Of a stretch of DNA of 44,371 nt, positions 479-40,061 are shown in pieces. The stretch is from Escherichia phage 6949. Where the stretch lies: the sequence record OL362273.1; one strand, 5' to 3'. The notes under the pieces are model-generated. The model was not told the DNA's origin and searched no databases. It worked only from the letters and a program-made list of their open reading frames with translations. Numbering within the stretch: the stretch's first letter is position 1; each line of letters begins with the position of its first letter. A program made the translations under genes and the position numbers.

Positions 479-2376
479 TGGCTAAGGCAAGAGAATCACA
501 AGCGGAGGCTCTTGCCAGATGGGAGATGCTACAGGAGTTACAGCAGACCTTTCCTTACACAGCGGAAGGTTTGCTTCTCTTTGCAGATACAGTTATTCAT
601 AACTTAATTGCAGGCAACCCTCATCTGATTCGTATGCAGGCTGATATCTTGAAGTTCCTATTTTACGGACACAAGTACCGCCTCATCGAAGCGCCTCGTG
701 GTATCGCTAAGACAACACTATCAGCAATCTATACGGTATTCCGTATTATTCATGAACCGCATAAGCGTATCATGGTTGTGTCCCAAAACGCCAAGCGAGC
801 AGAGGAGATCGCAGGTTGGGTAGTTAAAATCTTCCGTGGCTTAGACTTTCTTGAGTTTATGCTGCCGGATATCTACGCTGGGGATCGTGCATCCGTTAAG
901 GCGTTTGAGATTCATTACACCCTACGTGGTAGTGATAAGTCTCCTTCTGTATCCTGTTACTCAATCGAAGCAGGTATGCAGGGTGCTCGTGCTGATATTA
1001 TTCTAGCGGATGACGTAGAGTCGATGCAGAACGCTCGTACGGCAGCGGGCCGTGCCTTGCTTGAGGAACTGACTAAGGAGTTTGAATCTATCAACCAGTT
1101 TGGGGATATAATTTACCTTGGTACACCTCAGAACGTAAACTCTATCTACAACAACCTACCTGCTCGTGGTTACTCTGTTCGTATCTGGACTGCGCGTTAC
1201 CCTTCAGTAGAGCAAGAGCAATGTTATGGCGACTTCCTTGCACCTATGATTGTTCAAGATATGAAGGACAACCCAGCACTTCGCTCAGGGTACGGGTTGG
1301 ATGGTAATAGTGGTGCACCTTGTGCCCCTGAAATGTATGATGATGAAGTCCTGATTGAGAAGGAAATCTCTCAGGGTGCTGCTAAGTTCCAGCTTCAGTT
1401 CATGCTTAACACTCGCATGATGGATGCTGACAGATACCCATTACGCCTGAACAATCTAATCTTCACCTCGTTTGGTACAGAGGAAGTCCCTGTGATGCCT
1501 ACGTGGAGTAATGATTCCATAAACATCATTGGTGATGCACCTAAGTATGGTAACAAGCCTACAGACTTCATGTACAGACCTGTAGCTCGCCCATACGAAT
1601 GGGGTGCTGTCTCCCGCAAGATTATGTATATTGACCCTGCGGGTGGCGGTAAGAACGGGGATGAGACGGGTGTAGCCATCGTATTCCTGCACGGCACATT
1701 CATTTATGTGTATCAGTGCTTTGGTGTACCTGGCGGATACCGAGAATCGTCCCTGAATCGCATTGTGCAGGCCGCAAAGCAGGCTGGTGTTAAAGAGGTA
1801 TTCATTGAGAAGAACTTTGGTCATGGCGCGTTTGAGGCGGTAATTAAGCCGTACTTTGAACGAGAGTGGCCTGTAACTCTGGAAGAGGATTACGCCACCG
1901 GACAGAAAGAGTTGCGTATCATTGAGACGCTGGAGCCGCTCATGGCAGCCCATAGGCTTATCTTCAATGCAGAGATGGTGAAGTCAGACTTTGAGTCGGT
2001 ACAGCACTATCCGCTTGAACTACGCATGTCCTACAGTCTTTTCAATCAAATGTCGAACATAACGATTGAGAAGAACAGCCTCCGGCACGATGACCGCCTA
2101 GACGCCCTGTATGGCGCTATACGGCAATTAACTTCTCAGATAGACTATGACGAGGTTACTCGAATTAATCGCCTCAGAGCGCAGGAGATGCGTGATTACA
2201 TCCATGCTATGAACACACCTCATCTGCGCAGGGCAATGCTATATGGAGATTACGGTACGGAGCGAAGAGTGACCAACACTTCCGTAGCGATGCAGCAGCG
2301 AGTTTACGGGCAGAACTACCGAAATAAATCGGCAAGCAGAAATGCACTTTCTGCAAGGATTTCAAGGACTTATTAA
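478..2376 (+). CDS. Terminase large subunit (T7 gp19-like)
   Basis: A roughly 632 aa ORF with the size and position of the T7-group large terminase. ATG 478 follows RBS AAGGAGG (467-473); the track start at 475 is a TTG. Confidence 0.88.
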   Translation: MAKARESQAEALARWEMLQELQQTFPYTAEGLLLFADTVIHNLIAGNPHLIRMQADILKFLFYGHKYRLIEAPRGIAKTTLSAIYTVFRIIHEPHKRIMVVSQNAKRAEEIAGWVVKIFRGLDFLEFMLPDIYAGDRASVKAFEIHYTLRGSDKSPSVSCYSIEAGMQGARADIILADDVESMQNARTAAGRALLEELTKEFESINQFGDIIYLGTPQNVNSIYNNLPARGYSVRIWTARYPSVEQEQCYGDFLAPMIVQDMKDNPALRSGYGLDGNSGAPCAPEMYDDEVLIEKEISQGAAKFQLQFMLNTRMMDADRYPLRLNNLIFTSFGTEEVPVMPTWSNDSINIIGDAPKYGNKPTDFMYRPVARPYEWGAVSRKIMYIDPAGGGKNGDETGVAIVFLHGTFIYVYQCFGVPGGYRESSLNRIVQAAKQAGVKEVFIEKNFGHGAFEAVIKPYFEREWPVTLEEDYATGQKELRIIETLEPLMAAHRLIFNAEMVKSDFESVQHYPLELRMSYSLFNQMSNITIEKNSLRHDDRLDALYGAIRQLTSQIDYDEVTRINRLRAQEMRDYIHAMNTPHLRRAMLYGDYGTERRVTNTSVAMQQRVYGQNYRNKSASRNALSARISRTY

Positions 2377-2397
2377 TTACTGGACACTATAGAAGGA
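2375..2397 (+). promoter_or_regulatory. SP6-type phage promoter downstream of the terminase genes
   Basis: AATTACTGGACACTATA followed by GAAGGA; the predicted +1 G is at 2392. Confidence 0.8.
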
Positions 2398-2530
2398 AGA
2401 CCCAGATAATAAGAGAAATAATAGGTAATATAGGTTAACCTAGGTTATATAGGTATGCCTTAGTATGGGTGTACTCCTGTACACCCTATTCCTTACTTCC
2501 TTACTATATTTACATAATAGGAGAGAGACA

Positions 2531-4140: not shown

Positions 4141-6039
4141 ATGGCTAAATTAACCAAACCTAATACTGAAGGAATCTTGCATAAAGGACAATCTTTGTAT
4201 GAGTACCTTGATGCGAGAGTTTTAACATCAAAGCCGTTTGGTGCTGCAGGTGACGCCACTACTGATGATACGGAGGTTATAGCTGCTTCATTAAACTCTC
4301 AGAAAGCTGTCACAGTCTCAGATGGTGTATTCTCTAGCTCTGGTATTAATAGTAATTACTGTAATTTAGACGGTAGGGGCAGTGGCGTGCTAAGTCACCG
4401 TTCCAGTACAGGTAACTACTTAGTATTTAACAATCTACGTGCAGGTCGCTTAAGTAATATTACGGTAGAAAGTAATAAGGAGACTGATACAACTCAGGGA
4501 CAGCAGGTATCTCTTGCTGGTGGAAGTGATGTTACTGTAAGTGACGTTAACTTCTCAAACGTTAAAGGTACTGGTTTCAGTTTAATCGCATACCCTAATG
4601 ATGCGCCACCTGATGGACTTATGATTAAAGGCATTCGAGGTAGCTATTCAGGCTATGCTACTAATAAGGCAGCCGGATGCGTACTTGCTGACTCCTCAGT
4701 TAACTCCCTCATAGATAACGTCATTGCTAAGAACTACCCTCAGTTCGGAGCAGTAGAGTTGAAAAGTACAGCCAGTTACAACATAGTCAGTAATGTTATA
4801 GGGGCAGATTGCCAGCATGTAACTTACAACGGCACTGAAGGGCCAATAGCCCCTTCTAATAACCTTATCAAGGGGGTGATGGCTAATAACCCTAAGTATG
4901 CAGCGGTTGTTGCAGGCAAAGGAAGTACGAACTTAATCTCAGACGTGCTCGTAGATTACTCAACTTCTGATGCTAGGCAGGCTCATGGTGTTACCGTAGA
5001 AGGGTCTGATAACGTCATAAATAATGTGCTTATGTCAGGATGTGATGGTACTAACTCTTTAGGACAAGGGCAGACTTCTACAATTGCACGCTTTATAGGT
5101 ACAGCTAATAACAACTATGCGTCTGTATTTCCTAGCTACAGTGCTACAGGTGTTATTACTTTCGAATCCGGCTCTACCCGTAACTTCGTAGAGGTAAAGC
5201 ACCCTGGCAGGAGAAACGACCTTCTCAGTTCTGCTAGTACTATTGACGGTGCAGCTACTATTGACGGCACTAATAATAGTAACGTAGTGCACGCACCTGC
5301 CTTAGGGCAGTACATAGGTAGTATGTCAGGTAGGTTCGAATGGCGGATTAAGTCCATGTCACTCCCTTCAGGAGTTCTTACTTCTGCTGATAAGTACAGA
5401 ATGCTTGGGGATGGTGCTGTATCATTAGCTTTAGGTGGGGGTACTTCTTCTCAAGTTCGCCTATTTACTTCTGATGGTGCTTCTCGGACAGTGTCCCTCA
5501 CCAACGGTAACGTGCGTCTTTCTACCAGTAGCACAGGCTATTTGCAGTTAGGTGCTGATGCAATGACCCCAGATAGTACTGGTACATACGCATTAGGTTC
5601 CGCCAGTCGAGCATGGTCTGGCGGTTTTACTCAAGCAGCATTCACTGTTACCTCAGATGCTCGGTGTAAAACAGAACCTCTTACTATCTCAGATGCCTTA
5701 CTGGATGCTTGGTCTGAAGTTGACTTTGTGCAGTTTCAGTATTTGGATCGTGTTGAGGAGAAGGGTGCAGACTCAGCTAGATGGCACTTCGGTATCATCG
5801 CTCAGCGAGCTAAGGAGGCTTTCGAACGTCACGGTATAGATGCACATCGCTATGGCTTCTTGTGCTTCGACAGTTGGGATGATGTATACGAGGAAGATGC
5901 CAATGGCTCTCGTAAACTGATTACACCAGCAGGTTCCCGCTACGGTATTCGTTACGAGGAAGTACTGATATTAGAGGCTGCGTTGATGCGGAGGACTATC
6001 AAGCGTATGCAGGAAGCACTAGCTTCCCTGCCTAAGTGA
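4141..6039 (+). CDS. Tailspike 1: beta-helix depolymerase with C-terminal intramolecular chaperone (peptidase S74-like) domain
   Basis: ATG 4141 follows RBS AGGAGA; the track start at 4081 is a TTG. The C-terminus carries SDARCK and HFGIIAQRAKEAF motifs, which are typical of auto-cleaving chaperone domains of endosialidase and K5-lyase type tailspikes. A phage promoter lies upstream and a terminator downstream. Confidence 0.8.
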   Translation: MAKLTKPNTEGILHKGQSLYEYLDARVLTSKPFGAAGDATTDDTEVIAASLNSQKAVTVSDGVFSSSGINSNYCNLDGRGSGVLSHRSSTGNYLVFNNLRAGRLSNITVESNKETDTTQGQQVSLAGGSDVTVSDVNFSNVKGTGFSLIAYPNDAPPDGLMIKGIRGSYSGYATNKAAGCVLADSSVNSLIDNVIAKNYPQFGAVELKSTASYNIVSNVIGADCQHVTYNGTEGPIAPSNNLIKGVMANNPKYAAVVAGKGSTNLISDVLVDYSTSDARQAHGVTVEGSDNVINNVLMSGCDGTNSLGQGQTSTIARFIGTANNNYASVFPSYSATGVITFESGSTRNFVEVKHPGRRNDLLSSASTIDGAATIDGTNNSNVVHAPALGQYIGSMSGRFEWRIKSMSLPSGVLTSADKYRMLGDGAVSLALGGGTSSQVRLFTSDGASRTVSLTNGNVRLSTSSTGYLQLGADAMTPDSTGTYALGSASRAWSGGFTQAAFTVTSDARCKTEPLTISDALLDAWSEVDFVQFQYLDRVEEKGADSARWHFGIIAQRAKEAFERHGIDAHRYGFLCFDSWDDVYEEDANGSRKLITPAGSRYGIRYEEVLILEAALMRRTIKRMQEALASLPK

Positions 6040-6046
6040 GAGACAG

Positions 6047-8231: not shown

Positions 8232-8420
8232 TCTCTCGCCCTCGCCCTCGCCGGGTTGTCCCCATAGGGTGGCCTGAGGGAATCCGTCTTCGACGGGCAT
8301 GGCTGATGTACTCCTTGGATAGTACAAGGGAGGCGGAGGGAACGCCTAGGGAGGCCTAGGAATGGCTTAGTGGTGGACAAGGTGATTACCTTAGTGAAGC
8401 CTCTTAGTGCATTCCTGAGG
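8232..8420. repeat. Probable genome terminus and terminal-repeat region (one collapsed copy)
   Basis: TCTCTCGCCCTCGCCCTCGCCGGGTTGTCCCCATAGGG at 8232 parallels the T7 left end as I recall it (TCTCACAGTG...CCCCCATAGGGGG). The region is non-coding and the first early genes lie downstream. The exact boundaries cannot be set from one collapsed copy. Confidence 0.4.
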
Positions 8421-8794
8421 CCATTCAGGGCTTTTATGAGGTATTGACAGGGTGGATGGGCGTGGGCTATCTGTTCGTTTCGTTCACTCCGCTTGCGCTA
8501 CGTTCACTCGCTCACGTGTACCTTATGCTATTACTTGATGGATAGCTTAGGTTATAGCTTAGTGGCCTACCTTAGTTATAACCTTAGTGCATAGCTTAGT
8601 ATCAGCTTAGTAGTGTACCTTAGTAAGTCTTAGTGTCTTCTCTTAGTGATTGCACATGCAAGCATGTAAGATGCCATTAGGTCGCGGTCGGTAGACCGCT
8701 ACAGAAGGAGAATAGTAATAAGATGCAGTAGGAGGAACACCAGAAACCTAGCCAACCTAGCCTATCCTAGCTCTGTATCTATTGCTTTTCCTTA

Positions 8795-8810
8795 GTCTAA
8801 CATGTGAGAC
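8795..8810. repeat. Palindrome family copy, degenerate (GTCTAACATGTGAGAC)
   Basis: One mismatch from a perfect 16 bp palindrome. Its flank CTAGGTTGTCTCACATG (read on the minus strand) matches the copy at 14411-14428. Confidence 0.4.
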
Positions 8811-8844
8811 AACCTAGATTTATCTTAGTGATGATATCTTAGTG

Positions 8845-8876
8845 TTGACAAGGCCATCTCAATATAATACTATTCA
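8845..8876 (+). promoter_or_regulatory. Candidate host sigma70 early promoter
   Basis: A perfect TTGACA at 8845-8850 is followed by a TATAATACTAT block. Spacing to the exact TATAAT is only 12 bp, so the working -10 is more likely TACTAT or AATACT at 15-17 bp. It sits upstream of the first early genes. Confidence 0.35.
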
Positions 8877-9016
8877 TCACGTAGGCAGCACTGAGGTGCT
8901 TAGTAGCCAGCTAGTAAGGCATACGAAGAGACTAGCGCTTACATTGCTCTTTAACAATTTGCTTAGTGTAACCTATGTATGCCGTGGTCAATTACTTATT
9001 GAATGAGGGATTAACT

Positions 9017-11536: not shown

Positions 11537-14164
11537 ATGCAAGACCTACACGCTATTCAACTTCAACTTGAAGAAGAAATGTTTAACGGCGGTATCCGTC
11601 GCTTTGAAGCGGACCAACAACGCCAGATTGCATCCGGTAATGAATCAGACACGGCATGGAATCGCCGCTTATTGTCCGAGTTAATCGCGCCAATGGCTGA
11701 AGGTATTCAGGCATACAAGGAAGAGTATGAAGGTAAAAGAGGCCGTGCACCGCGTGCATTAGCTTTCATTAACTGCGTAGAAAACGAAGTGGCAGCATAT
11801 ATCACGATGAAAATCGTTATGGATATGCTGAACACGGATGTAACCTTGCAGGCTATAGCCATGAATGTAGCTGACCGCATTGAGGACCAAGTACGTTTTA
11901 GCAAGCTGGAAGGTCACGCCGCCAAATACTTTGAGAAAGTTAAGAAGTCACTTAAGGCAAGTAAGACTAAATCATATCGCCATGCGCACAACGTAGCGGT
12001 CGTGGCTGAGAAGTCAGTAGCTGACCGTGACGCTGATTTCTCTCGCTGGGAGGCATGGCCTAAAGACACCTTGCTGCAAATTGGGATGACCTTGCTTGAA
12101 ATCTTAGAGAATAGCGTATTCTTCAACGGGCAACCTGTCTTCCTCCGCACCTTGCGCACTAATGGCGGCAAACATGGTGTTTACTACCTACAGACTAGTG
12201 AACACGTAGGTGAGTGGATAACTGCATTTAAAGAACATGTAGCGCAACTTAGTCCAGCCTATGCACCTTGCGTTATTCCTCCGCGTCCGTGGGTATCACC
12301 CTTTAACGGTGGGTTTCATACTGAGAAAGTAGCAAGCCGTATTCGTCTGGTAAAAGGCAATCGTGAGCACGTCCGCAAGCTGACCAAAAAGCAAATGCCA
12401 GCGGTTTACAAGGCTGTTAACGCTTTGCAGGCGACTAAGTGGCAGGTTAATAAAGAGGTTTTACAGGTTGTGGAGGACGTTATACGTCTAGACCTCGGCT
12501 ATGGTGTACCTTCCTTTAAACCACTCATCGACCGTGAGAACAAGCCCGCTAATCCGGTGCCGTTAGAGTTCCAGCACCTGCGAGGCCGTGAACTGAAAGA
12601 AATGCTTACGCCGGAACAATGGCAAGCCTTTATCAACTGGAAAGGTGAATGTACTAAGCTGTACACCGCTGAAACTAAGCGCGGAAGCAAATCGGCGGCA
12701 ACCGTTCGCATGGTTGGTCAGGCCCGTAAATATAGCCAGTTCGACGCAATCTACTTCGTGTATGCACTGGACAGCCGCAGCCGTGTATACGCGCAATCTA
12801 GCACGCTCTCGCCGCAATCAAACGACTTAGGCAAGGCATTGCTCCGTTTTACCGAAGGGCAGCGTCTTGATAGCGCTGAGGCGCTTAAGTGGTTTTTGGT
12901 GAACGGGGCTAATAACTGGGGTTGGGATAAGAAAACTTTTGACGTGCGCACCGCTAACGTGCTGGATAGTGAATTTCAAGACATGTGCCGCGACATTGCA
13001 GCGGATCCGCTGACCTTCACTCAATGGGTAAATGCCGACTCCCCTTACGGCTTCCTTGCATGGTGCTTTGAATATGCGCGTTATCTGGATGCACTGGATG
13101 AAGGCACGCAAGACCAATTCATGACGCACCTCCCAGTCCATCAAGATGGTAGTTGTTCTGGTATCCAGCACTACAGTGCTATGCTACGCGATGCAGTAGG
13201 TGCGAAAGCAGTAAACCTTAAGCCCTCTGACTCCCCTCAAGATATTTATGGCGCGGTTGCGCAGGTTGTTATCCAGAAGAATTACGCCTACATGAATGCA
13301 GACGACGCAGTGACTTTCACATCTGGAAGCGTCACACTTACAGGTGCAGAACTGCGTAGCATGGCTAGTGCGTGGGATATGATAGGAATCACTCGCGGAT
13401 TGACCAAAAAGCCCGTAATGACACTACCTTATGGCAGCACACGTCTAACCTGCCGTGAATCAGTGATTGATTATATCGTTGATTTAGAAGAAAAAGAGGC
13501 CCAACGGGCTATTGCGGAAGGGCGTACCGCCAATCCTGTACACCCTTTTGATAATGACCGTAAAGACAGCCTGACACCTAGCGCAGCTTATAACTATATG
13601 ACAGCTTTAATCTGGCCTTCTATTTCGGAAGTGGTTAAAGCTCCTATAGTGGCAATGAAAATGATTCGTCAGCTTGCCCGTTTCGCAGCTAAAAGGAATG
13701 AAGGCTTAGAGTATACCCTGCCTACTGGCTTCATCTTGCAACAAAAGATTATGGCTACTGATATGCTACGCGTATCTACTTGCTTGATGGGAGAAATCAA
13801 GATGAGTCTACAGATTGAAACGGACGTAGTAGATGAAACGGCAATGATGGGCGCTGCTGCTCCTAACTTTGTGCATGGTCATGATGCCAGTCACCTTATC
13901 TTAACGGTCTGCGACCTTGTTGATAAAGGGATTACATCTATCGCAGTAATTCATGATTCTTTTGGCACTCATGCAGGCCGTACAGCCGATCTACGCAACA
14001 GCTTAAGGGCAGAAATGGTGAAGATGTATCAAGGCCGTAATGCACTGCAAAGCCTGCTAGATGAGCACGAAGAACGCTGGTTAGTTGATACAGGAATACA
14101 AGTACCAGAGCAAGGGGAGTTTGACCTTAACGAAATCTTAGTTTCAGACTATTGCTTCGCATAA
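11537..14164 (+). CDS. Single-subunit DNA-directed RNA polymerase (SP6-type)
   Basis: The 875 aa protein starts [32 protein letters not shown], matching the SP6 RNA polymerase N-terminus as I remember it. The catalytic region reads [19 protein letters not shown] and VIHDSFGTH, and the C-terminus ends ..FA. Confidence 0.97.
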
Positions 14165-14172
14165 TATTAATA

Positions 14173-14202
14173 GGCCATTCCTTCGGGAGTGGCCTTTCTT
14201 TT
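14173..14202 (+). terminator. Intrinsic terminator after the RNA polymerase gene
   Basis: The stem GGCCAUUCC / GGAGUGGCC (one G-U pair) encloses a UUCG tetraloop and is followed by TTTCTTTT. Confidence 0.65.
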
Positions 14203-14237
14203 ACCTACTACCTGTAACATTTCATTAACATAAAAGT

Positions 14238-14253
14238 GTCTCACATGTGAGGC
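14238..14253. repeat. Palindrome family copy (GTCTCACATGTGAGGC)
   Basis: The core CTCACATGTGAG is a perfect palindrome. It lies 3 bp upstream of the phage promoter at 14256. Confidence 0.5.
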
Positions 14254-14255
14254 TT

Positions 14256-14278
14256 ATTTACCGGACACTATAGGATAG
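14256..14278 (+). promoter_or_regulatory. SP6-type phage promoter
   Basis: ATTTACCGGACACTATA followed by GGATAG; the predicted +1 G is at 14273. Confidence 0.8.
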
Positions 14279-14439
14279 CCGTCGGAGACGGGAAAGAAAG
14301 GGAAGATAAAGGATATAAAGGAAGTAATAGGTATTAAAGGTTATATAGGTTATCTAGGAATACCTATTACCTTCTTCCTTCCTCTTATTACCACTCAGAG
14401 GAAGGGCAGACCTAGGTTGTCTCACATGTGAGACTTCGT
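14279..14439. other. Origin-like region between twin phage promoters (possible primary replication origin)
   Basis: A purine-rich tract (GGAAAGAAAGGGAAGATAAAGGATATAAAGGAAG) and its pyrimidine-rich mirror flank a 12 bp perfect inverted repeat (GTAATAGGTATT at 14324-14335 and AATACCTATTAC at 14359-14370) around an AT-rich spacer. The position matches the T7 primary origin between gene 1 and gene 1.1. Confidence 0.4.
14419..14434. repeat. Palindrome family copy (GTCTCACATGTGAGAC, perfect)
   Basis: A 16 bp perfect palindrome, 5 bp upstream of the promoter at 14440. Confidence 0.55.
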
Positions 14440-14462
14440 ATTTACCGGACAGTATAGATAAG
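14440..14462 (+). promoter_or_regulatory. SP6-type phage promoter variant (ACAGTATAG core)
   Basis: ATTTACCGGACAGTATA followed by GATAAG. It carries a C to G change in the core relative to the other copies. Confidence 0.6.
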
Positions 14463-14487
14463 ACTAACTTACTTTGGAGATTTAACC

Positions 14488-14616
14488 ATGCGTAACTTCG
14501 AAAAGATGACCCGTAAAGCTAACCGTTTTGACATGGAAGAAGGGCAGAAGAAAGGCAAGAAGCTAAATAAACCTGTCCGTGACCGTGCATCTAAACGCGC
14601 AGCGTGGGAGTTCTAA
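14488..14616 (+). CDS. Small basic protein, T7 gp1.1-like (42 aa)
   Basis: The translation is MRNFEKMTRKANRFDMEEGQKKGKKLNKPVRDRASKRAAWEF. Its N-terminus MRNFEKMT and basic composition match my recollection of T7 gp1.1. RBS GGAG lies upstream. The ORF is below the track cutoff. Confidence 0.55.
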   Translation: MRNFEKMTRKANRFDMEEGQKKGKKLNKPVRDRASKRAAWEF

Positions 14617-14619
14617 GTT

Positions 14620-16608
14620 ATGGCTATTATTCAGAATGTACCGTGTCCTGCCTGTCAAAAGAACGGACATGATATTACTGGCAATCATTTAATGATCTTT
14701 GACGACGGGGCAGGATACTGTAACCGTGGTCACTTCCATGATAACGGTAAACCTTATTACCACAAGCCGGAAGGTGGCATCGAGATAACCGAGTTACCTA
14801 TTACTGGCAATATCAAATATACACCTTCTCAATTCAAAGAAATGGAGAAGGAAGGGAAGATAAGCGACCCTAAATTACGTGCCATCGCACTAGGTGGTAT
14901 GCGTATGAAAGACCGTTGGGAGGTCATGAATGAGCAAGAAAGGGCAGACCAAGAAGCAGAGTGGAAACTTGATGTTGAATGGTTCCTCACGCTTAAGCGT
15001 AAGAACCTTGTTTCCCGACACATTCGCGGCGACATTTGCGCATTGTATGATGTACGTGTCGGACACGATGAAGAGGGTAGAGTCTCGCGGCATTACTATC
15101 CACGCTTCGAGAAAGGTGAGCTAGTAGGAGCTAAGTGTCGTACCTTACCTAAAGATTTCAAGTTTGGACACTTAGGTAAACTCTTTGGTATGCAAGATCT
15201 TTTCGGTATGAATACTTTGTCTCACGTGTTAGACAAGGGAAGACGAAAGGATTGCTTGCTTATTGTGGGTGGGGAACTGGATGCACTAGCAGCGCAGCAG
15301 ATGCTCCTTGATTCTGCCAAGGGTACTAAGTGGGAAGGTCAACCTTACCATGTATGGTCTGTTAACAAAGGGGAGTCTTGCCTTGAAGAGATTGTGCAGA
15401 ACCGTGAACACATCGCCCAATTCAAGAAGATTATTTGGGGCTTCGATGGGGATGAGGTAGGGCAGAAGCAGAACCAGCAAGCGGCTCGCCTGTTCCCTGG
15501 CAAATCCTATATCCTTGAGTACCCTTCTGGTTGCAAAGATGCCAACAAGGCATTGATGGCTGGCAAGGCTAAAGAGTTTGTTGATGCATGGTTTAATGCC
15601 AAGTCATCTGATGAAGTCTTTGGTAGCCAGATTAAATCTATCGCATCTCAAAGGGATAAGCTCAAGGCTGCACGTCCAGAGCAAGGACTATCATGGCCTT
15701 GGCCTAAGCTGAACAAGGTAACGCTAGGTATTCGTAAGAATCAGCTTATCATTGTAGGTGCAGGGTCTGGTGTAGGTAAGACTGAGTTCCTTCGTGAAGT
15801 AGTTAAGCACCTCATTGAAGAACACGGTGAATCTGTAGGCATCATTTCTACAGAAGACCCGATGGTCAAGGTGTCCCGTGCTTTTATCGGCAAGTGGATT
15901 GATAAGCGTATTGAGTTACCGCCAACCAACGACCCGAAAGAAGACGGATACCGTGAGGTGTTCGATTACACCGAGGAAGAAGCTAACGCCGCCATTGATT
16001 ATGTAGCTGATACAGGTAAGCTGTTTGTAGTTGACCTAGAGGGTGACTATTCGATGGAAAAGGTAGAGCAAACTTGCCTAGAGTTTGAGGCTATGGGTAT
16101 TTCTAATATCATCATTGATAACTTAACGGGGATTAAATTAGATGAGCGTGCTTTTGGTGGGAAGGTTGGTGCACTTGATGAATGCGTCAAGCGGATTGGT
16201 ACTATCAAAGACCGACACCCGGTTACTATATTCCTTGTATCACACCTTACACGTCCTCCGGCAAACCGTACCCAACACGAAGAAGGTGGCGAAGTTATCC
16301 TTTCTGACTTCCGAGGCTCAGGCGCTATCGGATTCTGGGCATCTTACGCCTTGGGGATTGAGCGTAATACAAGAGCTGAAACGCTTGACGAAAGGACTAC
16401 CACGTACATCTCATGTGTCAAAGACCGCGACCAAGGTATCTGGACTGGAACCAAGGTCATGCTTAAGGGTGACATTCAAACCGGACGTTTAATGGAACCA
16501 CAAGCCCGTACTAAGTCATTTGACACCGGCGAAGCAAGGCAACAAGAAGTACCGGATTTACCGGACACTATAGAAGAGACTAACTTCGATGAAGAAAGTG
16601 AGTTCTGA
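14620..16608 (+). CDS. DNA primase/helicase (T7 gp4-like)
   Basis: The N-terminus has a zinc-binding motif (CPACQ...C.RGH), and the helicase domain has a Walker A motif (GAGSGVGKTEF). The C-terminus is acidic and ends in Phe (DEESEF), as in T7 gp4. Confidence 0.93.
   Translation: MAIIQNVPCPACQKNGHDITGNHLMIFDDGAGYCNRGHFHDNGKPYYHKPEGGIEITELPITGNIKYTPSQFKEMEKEGKISDPKLRAIALGGMRMKDRWEVMNEQERADQEAEWKLDVEWFLTLKRKNLVSRHIRGDICALYDVRVGHDEEGRVSRHYYPRFEKGELVGAKCRTLPKDFKFGHLGKLFGMQDLFGMNTLSHVLDKGRRKDCLLIVGGELDALAAQQMLLDSAKGTKWEGQPYHVWSVNKGESCLEEIVQNREHIAQFKKIIWGFDGDEVGQKQNQQAARLFPGKSYILEYPSGCKDANKALMAGKAKEFVDAWFNAKSSDEVFGSQIKSIASQRDKLKAARPEQGLSWPWPKLNKVTLGIRKNQLIIVGAGSGVGKTEFLREVVKHLIEEHGESVGIISTEDPMVKVSRAFIGKWIDKRIELPPTNDPKEDGYREVFDYTEEEANAAIDYVADTGKLFVVDLEGDYSMEKVEQTCLEFEAMGISNIIIDNLTGIKLDERAFGGKVGALDECVKRIGTIKDRHPVTIFLVSHLTRPPANRTQHEEGGEVILSDFRGSGAIGFWASYALGIERNTRAETLDERTTTYISCVKDRDQGIWTGTKVMLKGDIQTGRLMEPQARTKSFDTGEARQQEVPDLPDTIEETNFDEESEF
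16556..16578 (+). promoter_or_regulatory. SP6-type phage promoter inside the 3' end of the primase/helicase gene
   Basis: ATTTACCGGACACTATA followed by GAAGAG; the predicted +1 G is at 16573. Confidence 0.75.
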
Positions 16609-16628: not shown

Positions 16629-16646
16629 TGTCTCACACGTGAGACA
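16629..16646. repeat. Palindrome family copy (TGTCTCAC-AC-GTGAGACA)
   Basis: Two 8 bp inverted arms separated by 2 bp, extendable with a G-U pair to about 11 bp, followed by CTCTTATT. Confidence 0.55.
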
Positions 16647-17773: not shown

Positions 17774-17791
17774 TGTCTCACGTGTGAGACA
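17774..17791. repeat. Palindrome family copy (TGTCTCAC-GT-GTGAGACA)
   Basis: Two 8 bp inverted arms separated by 2 bp, followed by GCCTTTAT. Confidence 0.55.
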
Positions 17792-20880: not shown

Positions 20881-20939
20881 GTTATACTCAAGGTCACTTA
20901 CGAGTGGCCTTTATGAATAACTTAACTGGAGGAAATATA

Positions 20940-21497
20940 ATGAATGAACTGAACACTAAGATGCTCAAGAAAGTTTATAATCTTGTATATAGTATCACGG
21001 GCCTACAATTCTACCCTGTAGGCGGTGCGGTTCGTGACACCCTGTACGGATTAACACCTAAAGACTATGATATGGTGTTGCCTGTAGGGTCTATGGCAGA
21101 TTCTCAGGCGCACGAAATCATGGAAAATATCTCTGAAGAGATGGCAATTATGGGATTTAGTACCAAACTCTACCAATCATACGGTATCAATTTAGGTTAT
21201 GAAATCAACCCTACCTCTTTTCAGGCTATGTTCCTTAGCTGCATGAAAGTGCAGATGCGTAATTGCCAACTTGATTTGCTTCTTTCTAAGGCTGAAACCA
21301 TCCAAGATCATGTACGTAAGCACGATTGCAATATGAATATGGTGTGGTTCGATGGTAAAGATATCAAGTGGGAGCACGGCGGTGTTACTCCTTTCGTTCC
21401 TGTGTTAGAGTTCAACCCTGACGGATGTGATCGTCGCATTGCTTACATGGACAAGAAGCGCCATGAACTTATCCGTCACAAATTAATGCATCTTTGA
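20940..21497 (+). CDS. Minimal nucleotidyltransferase, CCA-adding enzyme / poly(A) polymerase head-domain-like
   Basis: RBS GGAGGA lies 6 nt upstream of ATG 20940. The motif FYPVGGAVRDTLYGLTPKDYDMVL matches the class II tRNA nucleotidyltransferase signature GGxVRD...D.D. At 185 aa it has no room for the usual body and tail domains. Confidence 0.65.
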   Translation: MNELNTKMLKKVYNLVYSITGLQFYPVGGAVRDTLYGLTPKDYDMVLPVGSMADSQAHEIMENISEEMAIMGFSTKLYQSYGINLGYEINPTSFQAMFLSCMKVQMRNCQLDLLLSKAETIQDHVRKHDCNMNMVWFDGKDIKWEHGGVTPFVPVLEFNPDGCDRRIAYMDKKRHELIRHKLMHL

Positions 21498-21519
21498 TTT
21501 ACCGGACACTATAGAAGGA
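21497..21519 (+). promoter_or_regulatory. SP6-type phage promoter
   Basis: ATTTACCGGACACTATA followed by GAAGGA; the predicted +1 G is at 21514. Confidence 0.8.
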
Positions 21520-21583
21520 AGTCCTAGGTAATCTAGGTTTATAAGGTAGTATAGGTAATTAAGTAAATATAGGAGATATAAAC

Positions 21584-23074: not shown

Positions 23075-23090
23075 GTCTCACGTGTGAGAC
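23075..23090. repeat. Palindrome family copy (GTCTCAC-GT-GTGAGAC)
   Basis: Two 7 bp inverted arms separated by 2 bp, lying between the stop at 23073 and the promoter at 23106. Confidence 0.5.
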
Positions 23091-37079: not shown

Positions 37080-40027
37080 TGGCAATTGAGCGACAAGCAG
37101 TACAAGGTCTGCCACAAGTGCAGGCCACTTCTCCTAATGTCATGACCTTTGCACCTCAACAAGTGGGAGGTGTGGAGGCTGGCGTGGCTTCTACCTCCGG
37201 TAGTAGGTTTATCGAAGACCTTATTCGTGCAGCAAGCAGCGTGGCTGATGTTACCACTGGTATCCTTAATCAGAAGATTGAGGAAGATAAGGTTGTTCAA
37301 ATGGAACGGGCATATAACGGATTAATGCCTTCTGAGGATGCAACTCGTGGTGGCGCTCGTGCTAACATGCTTGTCAAAGCTCAACTGCTAGCTAATGATG
37401 AAGCAGCACGAATGAAAGACATGGCTACTCGTTTCCAAGGAACGGATGACGAATGGACACAACTTATGGTTGACTCTCGTAATGAGATGCAGAATAAGCT
37501 GTTCCAGCAATACCCTGAGTTGCAAGGTGACAAAGATACTATGCGTATGGTCACTAATGTCTTCCAAGAACAGCAGCCTCAGATTTGGGCTACACGAACC
37601 CAGCATAAACTTGACCGTGAACAAGCAGACCGTGAGGATACCTTTGACGGGCGAGTGGCTTCTACTTGGGATTCTAATATTGACCCTGAAGCCTCTGGCT
37701 ATGCTTTACAGGAACGAATCCGCGAAGGTCTTACTCAAGGATTACTACCTGAACAGATGCACAAGAAGTTAGTCCAGCGAGCAATTTCACTTGCACAAGG
37801 CGGTGATGTTAGCATGGCTGAAGCCCTGAAGTATGTGAAGGACGATAAGGGTGTTTCTGTTTATGCTAAGAATCCACAGCTTATCACAGCCATCACTAGT
37901 GGTAATGCAGTTTGGGCTAGGAATAATGTAGCTGATGTAACTCGTATGTCTTTCGAAGTTAAAGAATCCTACCTTGCAGGTGATTTAACTGATGAAGAAC
38001 TGTTGGAACGAGCACAGCACATTAATAATCTGACAGGTAACTCTGTCTTCTCTAATCCAGAGCTAGAGGCACTGATGCGCCAACGGGCTAAGCAGAATGC
38101 AGAGCTAGGTGCAATGCAGGATATGCGACGTGAGCTTTACTCTGACCGCCTGACTGGCTTCCAAGGTAAGACTGATAAAGAGAAGAAGGCTTACATTGAT
38201 GTTATCAAACAGGATAGCCAACTTTATGCAGACCAGCAAATCAAACAACGTGGCTTGGACCCTTACAGTCAAGAGGCTGAAGCTATTCGTGGTGCAGTGG
38301 AAGTGCAGCGCCTGCAATTCATGAACTCCAAAGGCTTAGTGGATGATACCTTTGAGTCTCGTATCAAAGCCATGGAATCTATGCTATCGCCTGAGCACTT
38401 TGCCAAGGGCGAACCACAGGAGTTGATGACTATTCGCCAGTTGTGGGAACAGTTGCCAGAAGAGAGCCGAGGTGTCTTTGGTGACACGGTGAATGGCTAC
38501 ATGGATAACTACAACACTGCACTACAAATGGGAGAGACACCTTTGCAGGCTGCAAGGTTTGCGCGTGAAGCACAGCAGAAATTCTCTCGTACTGAGAAGG
38601 AAACCAAGAAGTTCAACTCAGCTATTGGAGATGCACTGGATGAGGTATCTGGTGCTGGCTGGTTTGATGGTAAAACCGAAGTGTCAGACTTAGGTAAAGC
38701 TATTGCGGAAGAAGAGTTACGAGCTAAGGCCAATATGTTGTGGTCTAGTGGTATGCGTAACATGGATTCTATCAAGAGGGCTTTAATTACTTGGGGCAAT
38801 AAACGCTACACTCAAACAGAGGATGCAAAGACTTCCGGTGGCTATTTCATTAAAGGTGATTACACTTCTGCATCTGATATGCTTATGTCAGTTGGGAAAG
38901 GCGTAAACCCTACCGATGTACCTCTTGCGCTTGGTAGGTATGTAGAAACACAGATGCCAGAATTGAAGAAGGAGCTTCAAGAGTGGGAAACTAAAGATGA
39001 TATATACATTGATTACAATGAACAGAAAGGTACTTTCGTGATTCGTGCTGGTGCAGCAGGTCGCCCTCTTTCTGGAGTAATCCCTGTAACCTCTTTAGAT
39101 ACCACTTCACTACTAGATTCTGCCTATCAGAAGAAAGTAGAGGAACGAGATAAAGGCGAGTATGTTCACCCTTATCGTACAGATATTGGTGCACAAGAGC
39201 CTATGCCAGCTAAACCAACTGCCAAAGATATTGGTAAATTTGGACTAGCTAACTTCCTCATGTCTTCTGCTTTTGCTTCTGGTGAGAATCTGCCTTCTAA
39301 CTTCGAGATTAACTATCGAGGTAATATGCAACAATTCTATGACAAGCTAGCTATGGATGAGAATAAAGATAAAGTTGGCTTTAATAAGGCAACTGGAACC
39401 TTTACTCCATATAAAGATGCTCACGGTGAGTCTATCGGTTACGGTCATTTCTTAACGGAAGAAGAGAAGCGAAACGGGTATATTAAGATTGGTGATGAAC
39501 TAGTTCCCTATCGAGGGTCTATGTCTCAGCTTACAGAGAGCAAGGCTCGCGCTCTTATGGAGCAAGATGCCAAGAAGCATGTGCCTCCTACTCGTGACTG
39601 GAAGATTCCGTTTGACCAGATGCATCCTGCACAGCAACGTGGCTTGATGGATTTAACCTACAATTTAGGTAAAGGTGGAATCCAGAACTCACCGCGTGCT
39701 CTTGCTGCATTCAAAGCTGGTAAGCTTACGGAAGGCTTTATCGAAATGCTGGGCACTGCATCAAGTGAAGGTAAGCGTATCCATGGTTTACTGAAGCGAC
39801 GCGCTGAGGCATACAATATGGCATCTGCTGGTGGTGTGCCTAAGATTACCGAAGTGGAGACTCGTGAAGATGGCTCCATGTGGGTTAGGTTTGGTGGACC
39901 TATGCCAGCAGGTTCTGTCTCGGCATGGACTCATAAACGTATTGGCGCGGATGGTTGGTATCAGGTTTATGAGGCTGCACCTACCAAGTTAGCTAAAGGT
40001 TCTAAGGTGGGTAAATTTAAGTTGTAG
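37079..40027 (+). CDS. Internal virion (ejection) protein with C-terminal lysozyme-like peptidoglycan hydrolase domain
   Basis: A 982 aa ORF in the internal-protein block. The C-terminal region has YKDAHGESIGYGHFLTEEE, which resembles the T4 lysozyme core (YKDTEGYYTIGIGHLLT). Confidence 0.75.
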   Translation: MAIERQAVQGLPQVQATSPNVMTFAPQQVGGVEAGVASTSGSRFIEDLIRAASSVADVTTGILNQKIEEDKVVQMERAYNGLMPSEDATRGGARANMLVKAQLLANDEAARMKDMATRFQGTDDEWTQLMVDSRNEMQNKLFQQYPELQGDKDTMRMVTNVFQEQQPQIWATRTQHKLDREQADREDTFDGRVASTWDSNIDPEASGYALQERIREGLTQGLLPEQMHKKLVQRAISLAQGGDVSMAEALKYVKDDKGVSVYAKNPQLITAITSGNAVWARNNVADVTRMSFEVKESYLAGDLTDEELLERAQHINNLTGNSVFSNPELEALMRQRAKQNAELGAMQDMRRELYSDRLTGFQGKTDKEKKAYIDVIKQDSQLYADQQIKQRGLDPYSQEAEAIRGAVEVQRLQFMNSKGLVDDTFESRIKAMESMLSPEHFAKGEPQELMTIRQLWEQLPEESRGVFGDTVNGYMDNYNTALQMGETPLQAARFAREAQQKFSRTEKETKKFNSAIGDALDEVSGAGWFDGKTEVSDLGKAIAEEELRAKANMLWSSGMRNMDSIKRALITWGNKRYTQTEDAKTSGGYFIKGDYTSASDMLMSVGKGVNPTDVPLALGRYVETQMPELKKELQEWETKDDIYIDYNEQKGTFVIRAGAAGRPLSGVIPVTSLDTTSLLDSAYQKKVEERDKGEYVHPYRTDIGAQEPMPAKPTAKDIGKFGLANFLMSSAFASGENLPSNFEINYRGNMQQFYDKLAMDENKDKVGFNKATGTFTPYKDAHGESIGYGHFLTEEEKRNGYIKIGDELVPYRGSMSQLTESKARALMEQDAKKHVPPTRDWKIPFDQMHPAQQRGLMDLTYNLGKGGIQNSPRALAAFKAGKLTEGFIEMLGTASSEGKRIHGLLKRRAEAYNMASAGGVPKITEVETREDGSMWVRFGGPMPAGSVSAWTHKRIGADGWYQVYEAAPTKLAKGSKVGKFKL

Positions 40028-40043
40028 TATCTAACTCAAGGCT

Positions 40044-40061
40044 TGTCTCACATGTGAGACA
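40044..40061. repeat. Palindrome family copy (TGTCTCACATGTGAGACA, perfect 18 bp)
   Basis: A perfect 18 bp palindrome between the two large internal virion protein genes, followed by GGTCTTTAT. Confidence 0.55.

What the first reader, a model, noticed from the sequence alone, without database searches (positions are those of the whole stretch)
14256..14462. Origin-like structured region between twin phage promoters, downstream of the RNA polymerase gene
Two SP6-type promoters (14256 and 14440) flank about 160 bp that is strongly strand-asymmetric (a purine-rich tract mirrored by a pyrimidine-rich tract). It contains a perfect 12 bp inverted repeat, GTAATAGGTATT and AATACCTATTAC, around a 23 bp AT-rich spacer. 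A T7 gp1.1-like gene follows. In T7 the primary replication origin lies in the equivalent position between genes 1 and 1.1, with promoters 1.1A and 1.1B. The motif GGTTATATAGGT inside the spacer recurs at 2437-2448, and related TAGGTAAT / GTATAGGTAATT repeats occur at 21525-21570, each time just downstream of a phage promoter.
Basis: partly seen in the sequence, partly recalled or inferred. Interest (0 to 1): 0.55.

Follow-up and report, generated by a model that had tools for sequence, protein, structure and literature searches.

The report
Conserved noncoding unit between twin promoters
Between the RNA polymerase gene and the replication genes of this K1-5-like phage lies a strongly conserved, non-coding, promoter-driven stretch with a 9-10-base repeat and a long hairpin; it sits where phage T7 has its main replication origin, so it probably helps start DNA replication or shapes the replication-gene transcript, but neither has been tested.

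Summary
The window is a permuted genome of a K1-5-like Vectrevirus. Two phage promoters (14256, 14440) flank 161 non-coding bases. These hold the most purine-rich stretch of the genome, a mirrored pyrimidine tract, and the only perfect inverted repeat of 12 bp or more in 44 kb. The next gene is a true T7 gene 1.1 homologue, so the position matches T7 phi1.1A/phi1.1B.

New points:
- Each promoter follows a 16-bp palindrome.
- The first transcript starts with a stem-loop supported by covariation.
- The purine tract is an array of AGG motifs spaced 9-10 nt. Such arrays occur at only three places, each just after a phage promoter. One is the positional counterpart of T7 phiOR.
- The layout persists in Zindervirus, Klebsiella, Proteus and Erwinia relatives.
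- Within Vectrevirus the spacer is 97% identical, against 71-77% at neighbouring third codon positions.

Origin function is plausible but unproven. The region is only mildly AT-rich, GC skew says nothing, and the hairpin corresponds in position to T7's RNase III site R1.1, not to T7's AT-rich core. The constraint is far stronger than a simple T7-type origin needs. My best guess (0.4) is a promoter-primed origin with added specific structure. The main rival (0.3) is an RNA leader or processing element.

The parts
14172..14203 (+). Intrinsic terminator after the RNA polymerase gene: a 10-bp stem, a 4-nt loop and a T-rich tail. It probably ends early host-polymerase transcription.
   Evidence: Terminator scan. 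The stem keeps pairing through different sequences in relatives, for example GGGAGGCTCCGGCCTCCC in GRNsp03. It is annotated as a terminator in MK373773 and PM93.
14210..14230 (.). Invariant box ACCTGTAACATTTCATTAACA, upstream of the first promoter. Function unknown.
   Evidence: Unique in the window. The 20-mer CCTGTWACATTTCATTAACA is exact in 23 loci from three genera, although the intergenic region as a whole is only about 70% identical between those genera.
14238..14253 (.). Palindrome 1 (GTCTCACATGTGAGGC), a member of an 8-copy family.
   Evidence: Relatives have the genus-specific GTCCAACGTGTTGGAC at the same place.
14256..14278 (+). Phage promoter phiA, with +1 at G 14273. It matches the consensus fully from -17 to +1 and has an atypical +2..+6 (GATAG).
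   Evidence: Present in all relatives examined, including lineages with other promoter specificities.
14279..14291 (+). Stem-loop at the 5' end of the phiA transcript: CCGUC-GGA-GACGG, at +7 to +19.
   Evidence: 100% paired in 14 distinct sequences. The middle pair occurs as G-C, A-U, C-G and U-A; the other four pairs and the loop are nearly invariant.
14292..14358 (+). Purine-rich array of seven AGG motifs (14299, 14310, 14319, 14329, 14338, 14347, 14356) spaced 9-11 nt. Unit consensus is about tATAGGTAAt.
   Evidence: The GG doublets are invariant in 26 sequences from three genera. Whole-unit 10-nt insertions occur in KAW1A4500 and T205P4. 97% identical within Vectrevirus.
14324..14370 (.). 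Perfect 12-bp inverted repeat GTAATAGGTATT / AATACCTATTAC with a 23-nt spacer. Extended arms are 14318-14335 and 14359-14376.
14359..14395 (+). Pyrimidine tract complementary to part of the array. The stretch ATACCTATTACCTTCTTCCTTCCTCTT is invariant in 13 distinct Vectrevirus sequences.
14377..14405 (+). Small hairpin CCTTCCTCT ... AGAGGAAGG.
   Evidence: (I12). Changes seen within Vectrevirus are not cleanly compensated.
14419..14434 (.). Palindrome 2 (GTCTCACATGTGAGAC), a perfect 16-mer, possibly a terminator or processing hairpin for phiA transcripts.
   Evidence: Invariant within Vectrevirus. Two stem pairs switch between genera, U-A to C-G and C-G to A-U, with pairing kept.
14440..14462 (+). 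Phage promoter phiB, with +1 at 14457. It is non-consensus: G at -5 and +2..+6 ATAAG.
   Evidence: Its counterpart is also non-consensus in relatives: CAGTATAG in Proteus PM93, CACTATTG in SP6 and the Klebsiella phages.
14463..14487 (+). Leader of gene 8, with its ribosome-binding site (GGAG).
   Evidence: Sequence. Conserved in the alignment.
14488..14616 (+). Gene 8, a 42-aa homologue of T7 gene 1.1.
   Evidence: Pfam PF08200 at 58.6 bits and PHROG 2490. The T7 gene 1.1 sequence is.
2375..2530 (+). Related unit A: a phage promoter at the end of the large terminase gene, an AGG array (2421-2455), a hairpin (2467-2486), a pyrimidine tract, then a gene starting at 2531. This is the position of T7 phiOR.
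   Evidence: Conserved in SP6, Kpp-61 and PM93.
21497..21583 (+). Related unit C: a phage promoter and an AGG array (21525-21573) running in phase into the ribosome-binding site of the gene at 21584.
   Evidence: The 5' UTR is nearly identical in SP6 and Kpp-61. The array is absent from PM93.

Best explanation
The stretch 14238-14487 is the SP6/K1-5-group counterpart of the T7 module phi1.1A - R1.1 - phi1.1B - gene 1.1. I propose it acts in cis as a promoter-primed origin of DNA replication.

Proposed mechanism:
1. The phage RNA polymerase starts at phiA (G 14273).
2. It makes a purine-rich RNA that begins with a conserved stem-loop and runs through an array of AGG motifs spaced 9-10 nt.
3. 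This RNA stays associated with the template, or is handed to the phage DNA polymerase as a primer.
4. The displaced non-template strand can fold on itself through the purine/pyrimidine inverted repeat. It then offers a loading site for the primase-helicase, whose gene lies just downstream.
5. phiB, 184 bp further on, mainly expresses gene 8 and the primase-helicase gene.
6. The similar array after the promoter at 2375 (the phiOR position) would be a secondary origin.

Shown: the anatomy, the synteny, the conservation, and the covariation of the 5' stem-loop.

Inferred: that phiA transcripts prime DNA synthesis, that the array and inverted repeat serve this, and every step involving proteins.
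For: - Synteny with the T7 primary origin: RNA polymerase gene, twin promoters, gene 1.1 homologue. PMC8373140 states that T7 replication starts at phi1.1A/phi1.1B, that phiOR and phi6.5 are secondary origins, and that a phage promoter is the essential element.
- phiA has a perfect core but no gene of its own. No ORF of 30 aa or more lies between 14164 and 14488. phiB serves the next gene.
- The non-coding 323 nt are 96.6% identical within Vectrevirus, against 77% and 71% at third codon positions of the flanking genes.
- The order of elements is kept in Zindervirus, Klebsiella, Proteus (Acadevirus) and Erwinia relatives, and with other promoter specificities.
- Arrays of the same motif on the + strand occur only after promoters 2375, 14256 and 21497.
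- In Proteus phage PM93 they occur only after the RNA polymerase gene and after the large terminase gene, the two positions equivalent to T7 phi1.1A/B and phiOR.
- The start of the phiA transcript is the most purine-rich stretch of the genome.
- A long purine/pyrimidine inverted repeat of 31-43 predicted pairs is found in each of 8 lineages despite different sequences. It is equally strong on both strands, so it is a property of the DNA as well as of the RNA.
Against: - There is no experimental or computational signal of initiation. Cumulative GC skew rises monotonically.
- By the one sequence criterion that marks T7 origins, AT-rich DNA after the promoter, this region is unremarkable: 0.62 against 0.55 here, compared with 0.71-0.76 against 0.52 in T7.
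- A nearest-neighbour index for RNA-DNA hybrid versus duplex stability puts the phiA region in the top 0.13% of the window. However, the known T7 primary origin does not stand out on the same index (67-75th percentile), so the index is not diagnostic. Its parameters were also recalled from memory.
- The sequence constraint (invariant GG phasing, invariant pyrimidine tract, sequence-conserved stem-loop) is much stronger than a T7-type origin is known to need. It points to specific recognition of RNA or DNA by something unknown.
- Array C runs in phase into a ribosome-binding site, which suggests an mRNA-level role for the arrays.
- Changes in the left arm of the inverted repeat within Vectrevirus are not compensated.
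- A secondary source says Dobbins et al. 2004 suggested an SP6 origin at the DNA polymerase gene.
Confidence: 0.4

Rival explanations
1. It is an RNA-level leader or processing element. The phiA transcript is a structured 5' leader for the gene 8 / primase-helicase mRNA. The 5' stem-loop and the Shine-Dalgarno-like AGG array would stabilise the RNA or recruit ribosomes. The long purine/pyrimidine hairpin would be cut by a double-strand-specific nuclease such as RNase III, as R1.1 is in T7. Replication would start elsewhere or at any promoter.
For: - In T7 the element between phi1.1A and phi1.1B is a hairpin (fold; its identity as RNase III site R1.1 is from my own knowledge of Dunn and Studier 1983). 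T7 transcripts are processed by RNase III (PMC6938266).
- The predicted RNA folds in three genera share a 5' hairpin, a long irregular hairpin of about 17-30 bp and a terminal hairpin, with z from -1.9 to -2.4.
- The 5' stem-loop covaries.
- Arrays A and C lie in the 5' UTRs of genes, and the ribosome-binding site of the gene at 21584 is in phase with array C.
- The array unit ATAGGTAAT resembles this phage's ribosome-binding sites, ATAGGAGAT.
Against: - The most highly expressed late gene (major capsid, promoter 31882) has no array, so the arrays are not general translation enhancers.
- The long hairpin shows no compensatory change within Vectrevirus, and RNAalifold does not recover it across genera.
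- Both strands fold equally well, so there is no RNA-strand-specific signal.
- Only one perfect inverted repeat of this quality (12 bp or more, loop 3-60) exists in the genome, whereas T7 has about ten RNase III sites (own knowledge).
- In unit B, a palindromic hairpin and a second promoter separate the array from the gene, so phiB transcripts lack the array.
- No Rfam family matches.
Confidence: 0.3
2. It encodes a discrete non-coding RNA of about 165 nt, running from phiA to palindrome 2, that acts in trans. One possibility is a decoy that binds many copies of a host or phage RNA-binding protein, or 30S subunits, through the phased AGG motifs.
For: - A consensus promoter with no ORF.
- A protective 5' stem-loop with a conserved GGA loop.
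- A terminator-like hairpin 146-161 nt downstream.
- Six to twelve phased short motifs, as in known protein-sponge RNAs.
- Very high conservation.
Against: - Palindrome 2 is not followed by a U run (UUCGUAUUU), so efficient termination is doubtful.
- The conserved core is AGG followed by U, A or G, not the GGA that CsrA needs. SP6 and the Klebsiella phages have few GGA motifs.
- Much of the array is predicted to be paired with the pyrimidine tract.
- Arrays A and C are parts of mRNAs.
- No Rfam match.
Confidence: 0.12
3. It is a DNA-level protein-binding array. A phage or host DNA-binding protein would coat the phased motifs and/or the palindromes to regulate phiA/phiB, as a switch or roadblock for middle-gene transcription.
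For: - The palindromes are perfect 16-mers centred 27-31 bp upstream of +1 of phiA and phiB, and 40 bp upstream of promoter 23106.
- All copies in a genome share a genus-specific sequence, even the copy inside the primase gene, where the switch changes an amino acid.
- The invariant 20-bp box lies in DNA that phiA does not transcribe.
- The inverted repeat is symmetric at the DNA level.
Against: - A spacing of 9-10 bp does not keep sites on one face of B-DNA.
- Downstream of phage promoters the arrays always lie on the non-template strand; the only minus-strand clusters sit near the genome left end. This fits a role in RNA or displaced single strands.
- Palindrome copies after genes have stems extended by G-U pairs on the + strand and U-rich tails, which fits RNA hairpins.
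- No candidate binding protein was identified.
Confidence: 0.1

Closest known systems
Primary origin of replication of phage T7 (phi1.1A, phi1.1B and the AT-rich region before gene 1.1)
   Same: - Same place in the gene order: after the RNA polymerase gene and before a gene 1.1 homologue.
- Two tandem rightward phage promoters with non-standard initially transcribed sequences.
- A non-coding, structured spacer.
- Replication genes of the T7 type (PMC8373140).
   Different: - The spacer between the promoters is 161 bp instead of about 50 bp.
- The distinctive DNA lies between the promoters, not after the second one.
- It is only mildly AT-rich.
- It carries a phased AGG array, a long inverted repeat, flanking palindromes and a covarying 5' stem-loop, and it is far more constrained than a promoter plus AT-rich DNA would require.
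- No initiation has been mapped.
T7 RNase III processing site R1.1
   Same: - A hairpin placed between the two promoters upstream of gene 1.1.
- An irregular stem with an internal loop in the predicted RNA.
   Different: - No sequence similarity.
- The stem is built from repeat units and their complement.
- No covariation within the genus.
- Cleavage is untested.
- It is the only inverted repeat of that quality in this genome.
Transcript-primed origins with purine/G-rich non-template strands: mitochondrial LSP-CSB primer formation and ColE1 RNA II (own knowledge)
   Same: - A dedicated promoter with no gene.
- A structured, purine-rich nascent RNA with regularly spaced G clusters.
- A T7-like single-subunit RNA polymerase and a T7-like replisome, as in the mitochondrial case.
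   Different: - Only GG doublets are present, not long G runs.
- No evidence of persistent hybrids.
- The hybrid-stability index I computed is not validated by the T7 control.
5' leaders that bind a protein or ribosome cooperatively: the T4 gene 32 leader, and polypurine 'STAB-SD' 5' stabilisers of Bacillus and phage SP82 (own knowledge)
   Same: - A structured element at the 5' end followed by short repeated motifs that run up to the ribosome-binding site (unit C).
- Shine-Dalgarno-like purine motifs near the 5' end of a phage transcript.
   Different: - The genes after the arrays are not known nucleic-acid-binding proteins.
- In unit B the array is separated from the gene by hairpins and a second promoter.
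- No binding partner is known.

Membership tests
T7-type promoter-dependent replication origin | Lies between the RNA polymerase gene and the gene 1.1 homologue (position of the T7 primary origin) | tested here: met
   RNA polymerase gene 11537-14164. Gene 8 matches Pfam Phage_1_1 at 58.6 bits. T7 layout.
T7-type promoter-dependent replication origin | One or two phage RNA polymerase promoters directed towards the region where synthesis starts | tested here: met
   phiA at 14256 and phiB at 14440, both on the + strand. Kept in all relatives examined.
T7-type promoter-dependent replication origin | Markedly AT-rich DNA just downstream of the promoter | tested here: inconclusive
   T7 origin promoters are followed by 0.71-0.76 AT against a genome at 0.52. 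phiA is followed by 0.62 and phiB by 0.61 against 0.55, and other promoters of this genome are followed by more AT-rich DNA. The sub-stretch 14307-14365 is 73% AT.
T7-type promoter-dependent replication origin | Primase recognition site on the displaced strand | tested here: inconclusive
   The SP6 primase site 5'-GCA-3' is recalled from Tseng et al. 2000 and was not checked. One GCA lies on the + strand at 14406 and none on the - strand, against about 4.4 expected per strand. The site is not conserved in the Klebsiella clade.
T7-type promoter-dependent replication origin | RNA-to-DNA transitions or replication bubbles mapped to the site; the origin supports replication of a plasmid | not testable with these tools
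   Needs experiments. GC skew gives no signal.
RNase III processing site of the T7 R1.1 type | Irregular double-stranded RNA hairpin of about two helical turns in a phage transcript | tested here: met
   The predicted fold has 5 + 12 pairs plus an apical helix. Comparable folds in SP6 and Kpp-61 and in 8 lineages.
RNase III processing site of the T7 R1.1 type | Pairing maintained by compensatory change | tested here: inconclusive
   Each genus keeps an inverted repeat with different arm sequences. Within Vectrevirus, however, left-arm changes are uncompensated, and RNAalifold does not recover the stem.
RNase III processing site of the T7 R1.1 type | Cleavage by RNase III | not testable with these tools
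   Needs an in-vitro or in-vivo assay.
Any curated RNA family (Rfam 15) | Match at the family's gathering score | tested here: not met
   No match in the whole window. Only weak hits shaped like miRNA precursors at permissive thresholds.
CsrA-type protein-sponge RNA | Many GGA motifs, conserved, mostly in hairpin loops | tested here: not met
   The conserved core is AGG followed mostly by U. SP6 and the Klebsiella phages have few GGA motifs in the array, and much of the array is predicted to be paired.

The most novel reading that the evidence does not exclude
The phased AGG arrays (GG doublets every 9-10 nt, 6-12 units, always on the non-template strand just after certain phage promoters, and conserved across Molineuxvirinae), together with the sequence-conserved 5' stem-loop, may be an undescribed kind of cis element. 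They would form a platform on the nascent RNA or on the displaced DNA strand, on which a phage protein assembles cooperatively. Candidates are the small basic gene 1.1-like protein, the primase-helicase or the single-strand-binding protein. Such a platform would couple phage transcription to replisome loading or to translational control.
Probability: 0.2. Interest if true: 0.75.

Novelty: new variant of a known kind. Interest (0 to 1): 0.5.

Why it matters
As far as I could find, no replication origin has been mapped in the SP6/K1-5 group. These phages are used for phage therapy, and SP6 RNA polymerase is a standard laboratory tool.

This finding gives a precise and cheaply testable candidate of 161 bp, plus a second one after the terminase gene.

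It also shows that the region is constrained far more than the T7 model of a promoter plus AT-rich DNA would predict. Either the origin needs specific structure, or an unknown RNA or protein interaction is at work.

A defined SP6-type origin would also be useful for orthogonal replication systems like those built on T7 (PMC8373140; bioRxiv 10.1101/2024.07.25.605042).

Tried and rejected
- Rfam search: no family at gathering scores. Permissive hits are only hairpin-shaped noise.
- Cumulative GC and purine skew: monotonic, because all genes are on one strand. No origin signal.
- RNA-DNA hybrid versus duplex stability index: the phiA region ranks in the top 0.13%. The T7 primary origin does not stand out, so I do not use the index as evidence. 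Its parameters were recalled from memory.
- AT-richness as an origin marker: works for T7 but does not single out this region.
- Consensus RNA structure across genera: only the 5' stem-loop, a small apical pairing and palindrome 2 survive. The repeat region cannot be aligned reliably.
- Strand comparison of folding: no asymmetry that would prove an RNA-level hairpin.
- Sigma-70 promoter scan of 13800-14800: none on either strand, so there is no obvious antisense or host-polymerase unit.
- Small ORFs: none of 30 aa or more in the spacer, so the 'hypothetical proteins' annotated there in some records are not supported.
- CsrA sponge, G-quadruplex and H-DNA readings: rejected on sequence grounds. 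The core is AGG rather than GGA. There are only GG doublets, separated by 7-8-nt loops. The symmetry is inverted, not mirror.
- A second copy of the 5' stem-loop motif at 8284-8296 on the - strand is probably chance: 5 of 100 shuffles give two or more matches, and it is absent from SP6.
- Literature: the two SP6/K1-5 genome papers (Scholl 2004, Dobbins 2004) and Saito 1980 are not held. Sequence-string and keyword searches found no description of the arrays or palindromes. One paper mentions seven SP6 RNA polymerase terminators, one only 14 bp from a start site, which may include these palindromes. The tested SP6 t5 terminator is a different hairpin.
Full report
**What the window is.** The 1-kb stretch around the finding is 96% identical to Escherichia phage K1-5 and to many Vectrevirus genomes (Autographiviridae, Molineuxvirinae). 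The assembly is circularly permuted, and the K1-5/SP6-type left end lies near 8232. The RNA polymerase gene is 11537-14164. A 42-aa ORF follows at 14488-14616 and the primase-helicase gene at 14620-16608.

**Check of the observation.** The description holds.
- A core promoter search finds 12 phage promoters, all on the + strand, including 14256 and 14440.
- In a leave-one-out matrix, phiA has the full consensus from -17 to +1 but an atypical +2..+6. phiB has G at -5 and also an atypical start.
- The purine fraction is 0.79 at 14285-14350 and 0.22 at 14359-14395. The 60-mer starting at 14272 is the most purine-rich of the genome.
- The perfect 12-bp inverted repeat (14324-14335 / 14359-14370, 23-nt spacer) is the only perfect repeat of 12 bp or more with a loop of 3-60 nt in 44 kb. 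Genome shuffles give 0.2 on average, and 8 of 5000 shuffles of the region contain one.
- The ORF at 14488 is a member of Pfam Phage_1_1, at 58.6 bits against a cut-off of 21. Its first eight residues are those of T7 gp1.1.
- Two corrections. GGTTATATAGGT recurs at 2443-2454, not 2437-2448. The inter-promoter DNA is only 60% AT against 55% for the genome, although the 23-nt spacer is 70% AT.

**Anatomy, in order**:
- An intrinsic terminator at 14172-14203.
- A 21-bp box at 14210-14230.
- A 16-bp palindrome at 14238-14253.
- phiA, with +1 at 14273.
- A stem-loop CCGUC-GGA-GACGG at +7 to +19.
- Seven AGG motifs at 14299-14356.
- A pyrimidine tract at 14359-14395, part of which is the right arm of the inverted repeat.
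- A small hairpin at 14377-14405.
- A perfect 16-bp palindrome at 14419-14434.
- phiB, with +1 at 14457.
- A 25-nt leader, then gene 8.

The direct repeat that contains the two promoters therefore also includes the palindromes (families D3 and D4).

**The repeat array.**
- Within the purine tract the AGG motifs are 9-11 nt apart.
- Over nine arrays (three sites in this window, SP6 and Klebsiella phage Kpp-61), 40 of 53 spacings are 9 or 10 nt. The unit consensus is about tATAGGTAAt.
- Tandem Repeats Finder independently reports period-9 arrays at 2421-2455, 14306-14358 and 21525-21573.
- A genome-wide scan for [AT]AGG[AT][AT] clusters on the + strand returns exactly these three places. Each begins 10-30 nt after the start site of a phage promoter (2375, 14256, 21497).
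- The GG doublets are invariant in 26 sequences from three genera, while the bases between them vary.
- Relatives differ by whole 10-nt units: KAW1A4500 and T205P4 each have one extra unit, and PST_H2 has about twelve units.
- In unit C the true ribosome-binding site is in phase with the array.

**Conservation.**
- Among nine Vectrevirus sequences, the 323-nt intergenic region is 96.6% identical to the window. Third codon positions are 77% identical in the RNA polymerase gene and 71% in the primase gene. First and second positions are 98% identical. The array is 97% and the pyrimidine tract 96% identical, and palindrome 2 is invariant.
- The region aligns at about 70% identity with SP6-like Salmonella phages and with Klebsiella Molineuxvirinae.
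- The same order of elements is seen in Proteus phage PM93, Klebsiella phage H01, an IMG/VR contig (L034) and, more loosely, Erwinia phage Era103.
- Vibrio phage Vc1 has purine repeats of another motif followed by a pyrimidine tract.
- Twin promoters persist even where the promoter specificity differs (L029, H01, L034, PM93).

**Structure tests.**
- The 5' stem-loop is paired in all 14 distinct sequences. Its middle pair occurs as G-C, A-U, C-G and U-A, while the other pairs and the GGA/GAA loop barely change. Slid controls collapse to 33-61% pairing. Both structure and sequence seem to matter, and phiA transcripts are evidently under selection as RNA.
- Palindrome 2 keeps pairing while two stem positions switch between genera.
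- The long hairpin is less clear. RNAalifold does not recover it across genera.
- Within Vectrevirus the right arm is invariant, and four left-arm changes are not compensated.
- Yet each of eight lineages folds into a purine/pyrimidine hairpin of 31-43 pairs, with z from -1.4 to -5.3, built from different sequences.
- The two strands fold about equally well. The inverted symmetry is therefore conserved, but the data do not say whether it acts in RNA, in single-stranded DNA or in duplex DNA.
- No Rfam family matches.

**Comparison with T7.**
- In T7 the RNA polymerase gene ends at 5822. phi1.1A starts at 5848, phi1.1B at 5923 and gene 1.1 at 6007.
- T7 replication starts at these promoters. phiOR and phi6.5 are secondary origins, and a phage promoter is the essential element of each origin (PMC8373140).
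- The position of the finding is thus truly equivalent.
- The promoter at 2375 lies at the very end of the large terminase gene (475-2376), which is where T7 has phiOR.
- In Proteus phage PM93 the + strand AGG clusters occur only after the RNA polymerase gene and after the terminase gene. Two of the three arrays thus mark the positions of T7 origins.
- Against it, T7 origin promoters are followed by 71-76% AT DNA (genome 52%), whereas phiA is followed by 62% (genome 55%), less than several other promoters here.
- What lies between the two T7 promoters is a hairpin, known as RNase III site R1.1 (own knowledge). The T7 AT-rich core lies after phi1.1B.
- GC skew is uninformative.
- A hybrid-stability index favours the phiA region but fails the T7 control.
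- A secondary source says Dobbins et al. 2004 proposed an SP6 origin at the DNA polymerase gene.

**Interpretation.** The element is a conserved non-coding transcription unit. I rank a promoter-primed origin first (0.4), for these reasons:
- SP6-group phages have a T7-type replisome and, from what is known of T7, need a polymerase transcript to start.
- phiA is a perfect promoter without a gene.
- The unit and its sister array sit at the two T7 origin positions.

The constraint is too specific for a plain T7-type origin. If it is an origin, the phased GG array, the inverted repeat and the stem-loop must be recognised by something.

The main rival (0.3) is an RNA leader or processing element for the replication-gene mRNA, by analogy with R1.1 and because arrays A and C are 5' UTRs. 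The two are not exclusive, since in T7 both functions share one intergenic region. A trans-acting RNA (0.12) and a DNA-bound regulatory array (0.1) remain possible.

**Novelty.** The analogy with the T7 origin is a known kind of system and may already be noted in the 2004 genome papers, which I could not read. I found no description of the phased AGG arrays, the covarying 5' stem-loop, the degree of constraint or the link to the phiOR position. I rate the finding a new variant of a known kind, with moderate interest, because it turns an open question (where SP6-group phages start replication) into a small set of direct experiments.

Noticed in passing
window 8795-8810, 14238-14253, 14419-14434, 15219-15234, 16630-16645, 17775-17790, 23075-23090, 40045-40060: A family of 16-bp palindromes, GTCTCAC(R)(Y)GTGAGAC: 17 strand hits against 1.4 expected. 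Copies are syntenic in SP6 and Kpp-61 but there read GTC(C/T)AAC..GTTGGAC, so all copies in a genome share one type. The copy inside the primase gene switches type too, changing His to Asn. Copies after genes have stems extended by G-U pairs on the + strand and U-rich tails, like RNA hairpins or terminators. Salmonella phage PST_H2 carries one of each type.
   Followed up: partly
window 14210-14230: The box ACCTGTAACATTTCATTAACA lies between the early terminator and palindrome 1. It is unique in the genome and exact in 23 loci from three genera. It sits upstream of phiA and no sigma-70-like promoter is nearby, so it may act as DNA. Its function is unknown.
   Followed up: partly
window 8232-8900: The genome left end lies inside the window, so the assembly is permuted. 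It is followed by CTTAGT(G) repeats (8516-8624, periods 12/24/48), CCTAG repeats on the other strand (8745-8771), a palindrome copy, and a TTGACA-17-TATAAT early promoter. SP6 and PM93 have the same minus-strand clusters near their left ends.
   Followed up: no
window 2467-2486; L015 (SP6) about 37860-37880: The hairpin GGGTGTAC-TCCT-GTACACCC in the 5' UTR after promoter 2375 reads GGGAGGTA-TCC-TACCTCCC in SP6. The arms are fully different but still complementary.
   Followed up: no
window 14488-14616: Third codon positions of gene 8 are 90% conserved among Vectrevirus, against 71-77% in the neighbouring genes. The nucleic-acid-level constraint, or a recombination block, may extend into the gene.
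   Followed up: no
L012 (PST_H2) 534-1044; L010 (UAB_Phi78) 693-; L026, L027 after gene 8: HNH or homing endonuclease genes are inserted in or right next to this intergenic region in several relatives. In PST_H2 the insertion separates the array from palindrome 2 and phiB.
   Followed up: no
window 20904-21497: The ORF just upstream of promoter 21497 has a nucleotidyltransferase (PolyA_pol head) domain: Pfam 23.3 bits against a cut-off of 23, and PHROG 1614 at E = 2e-39.
   Followed up: no
L037 (T7) 5891-6041: In T7, clusters of CTTAAG/CTTTAAG-type motifs (4 or more per 100 nt, spacings 10-12 nt) occur only in the AT-rich part of the primary origin. I chose the motif after looking at that region, so this is only a hint that T7 also has phased short repeats there.
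   Followed up: partly
window 8284-8296 (- strand): There is a second near-copy of the 5' stem-loop motif (CCGTCGAAGACGG) near the genome left end. It is probably chance: 5 of 100 shuffles give two or more matches, and it is absent from the SP6 terminal repeat.
   Followed up: partly
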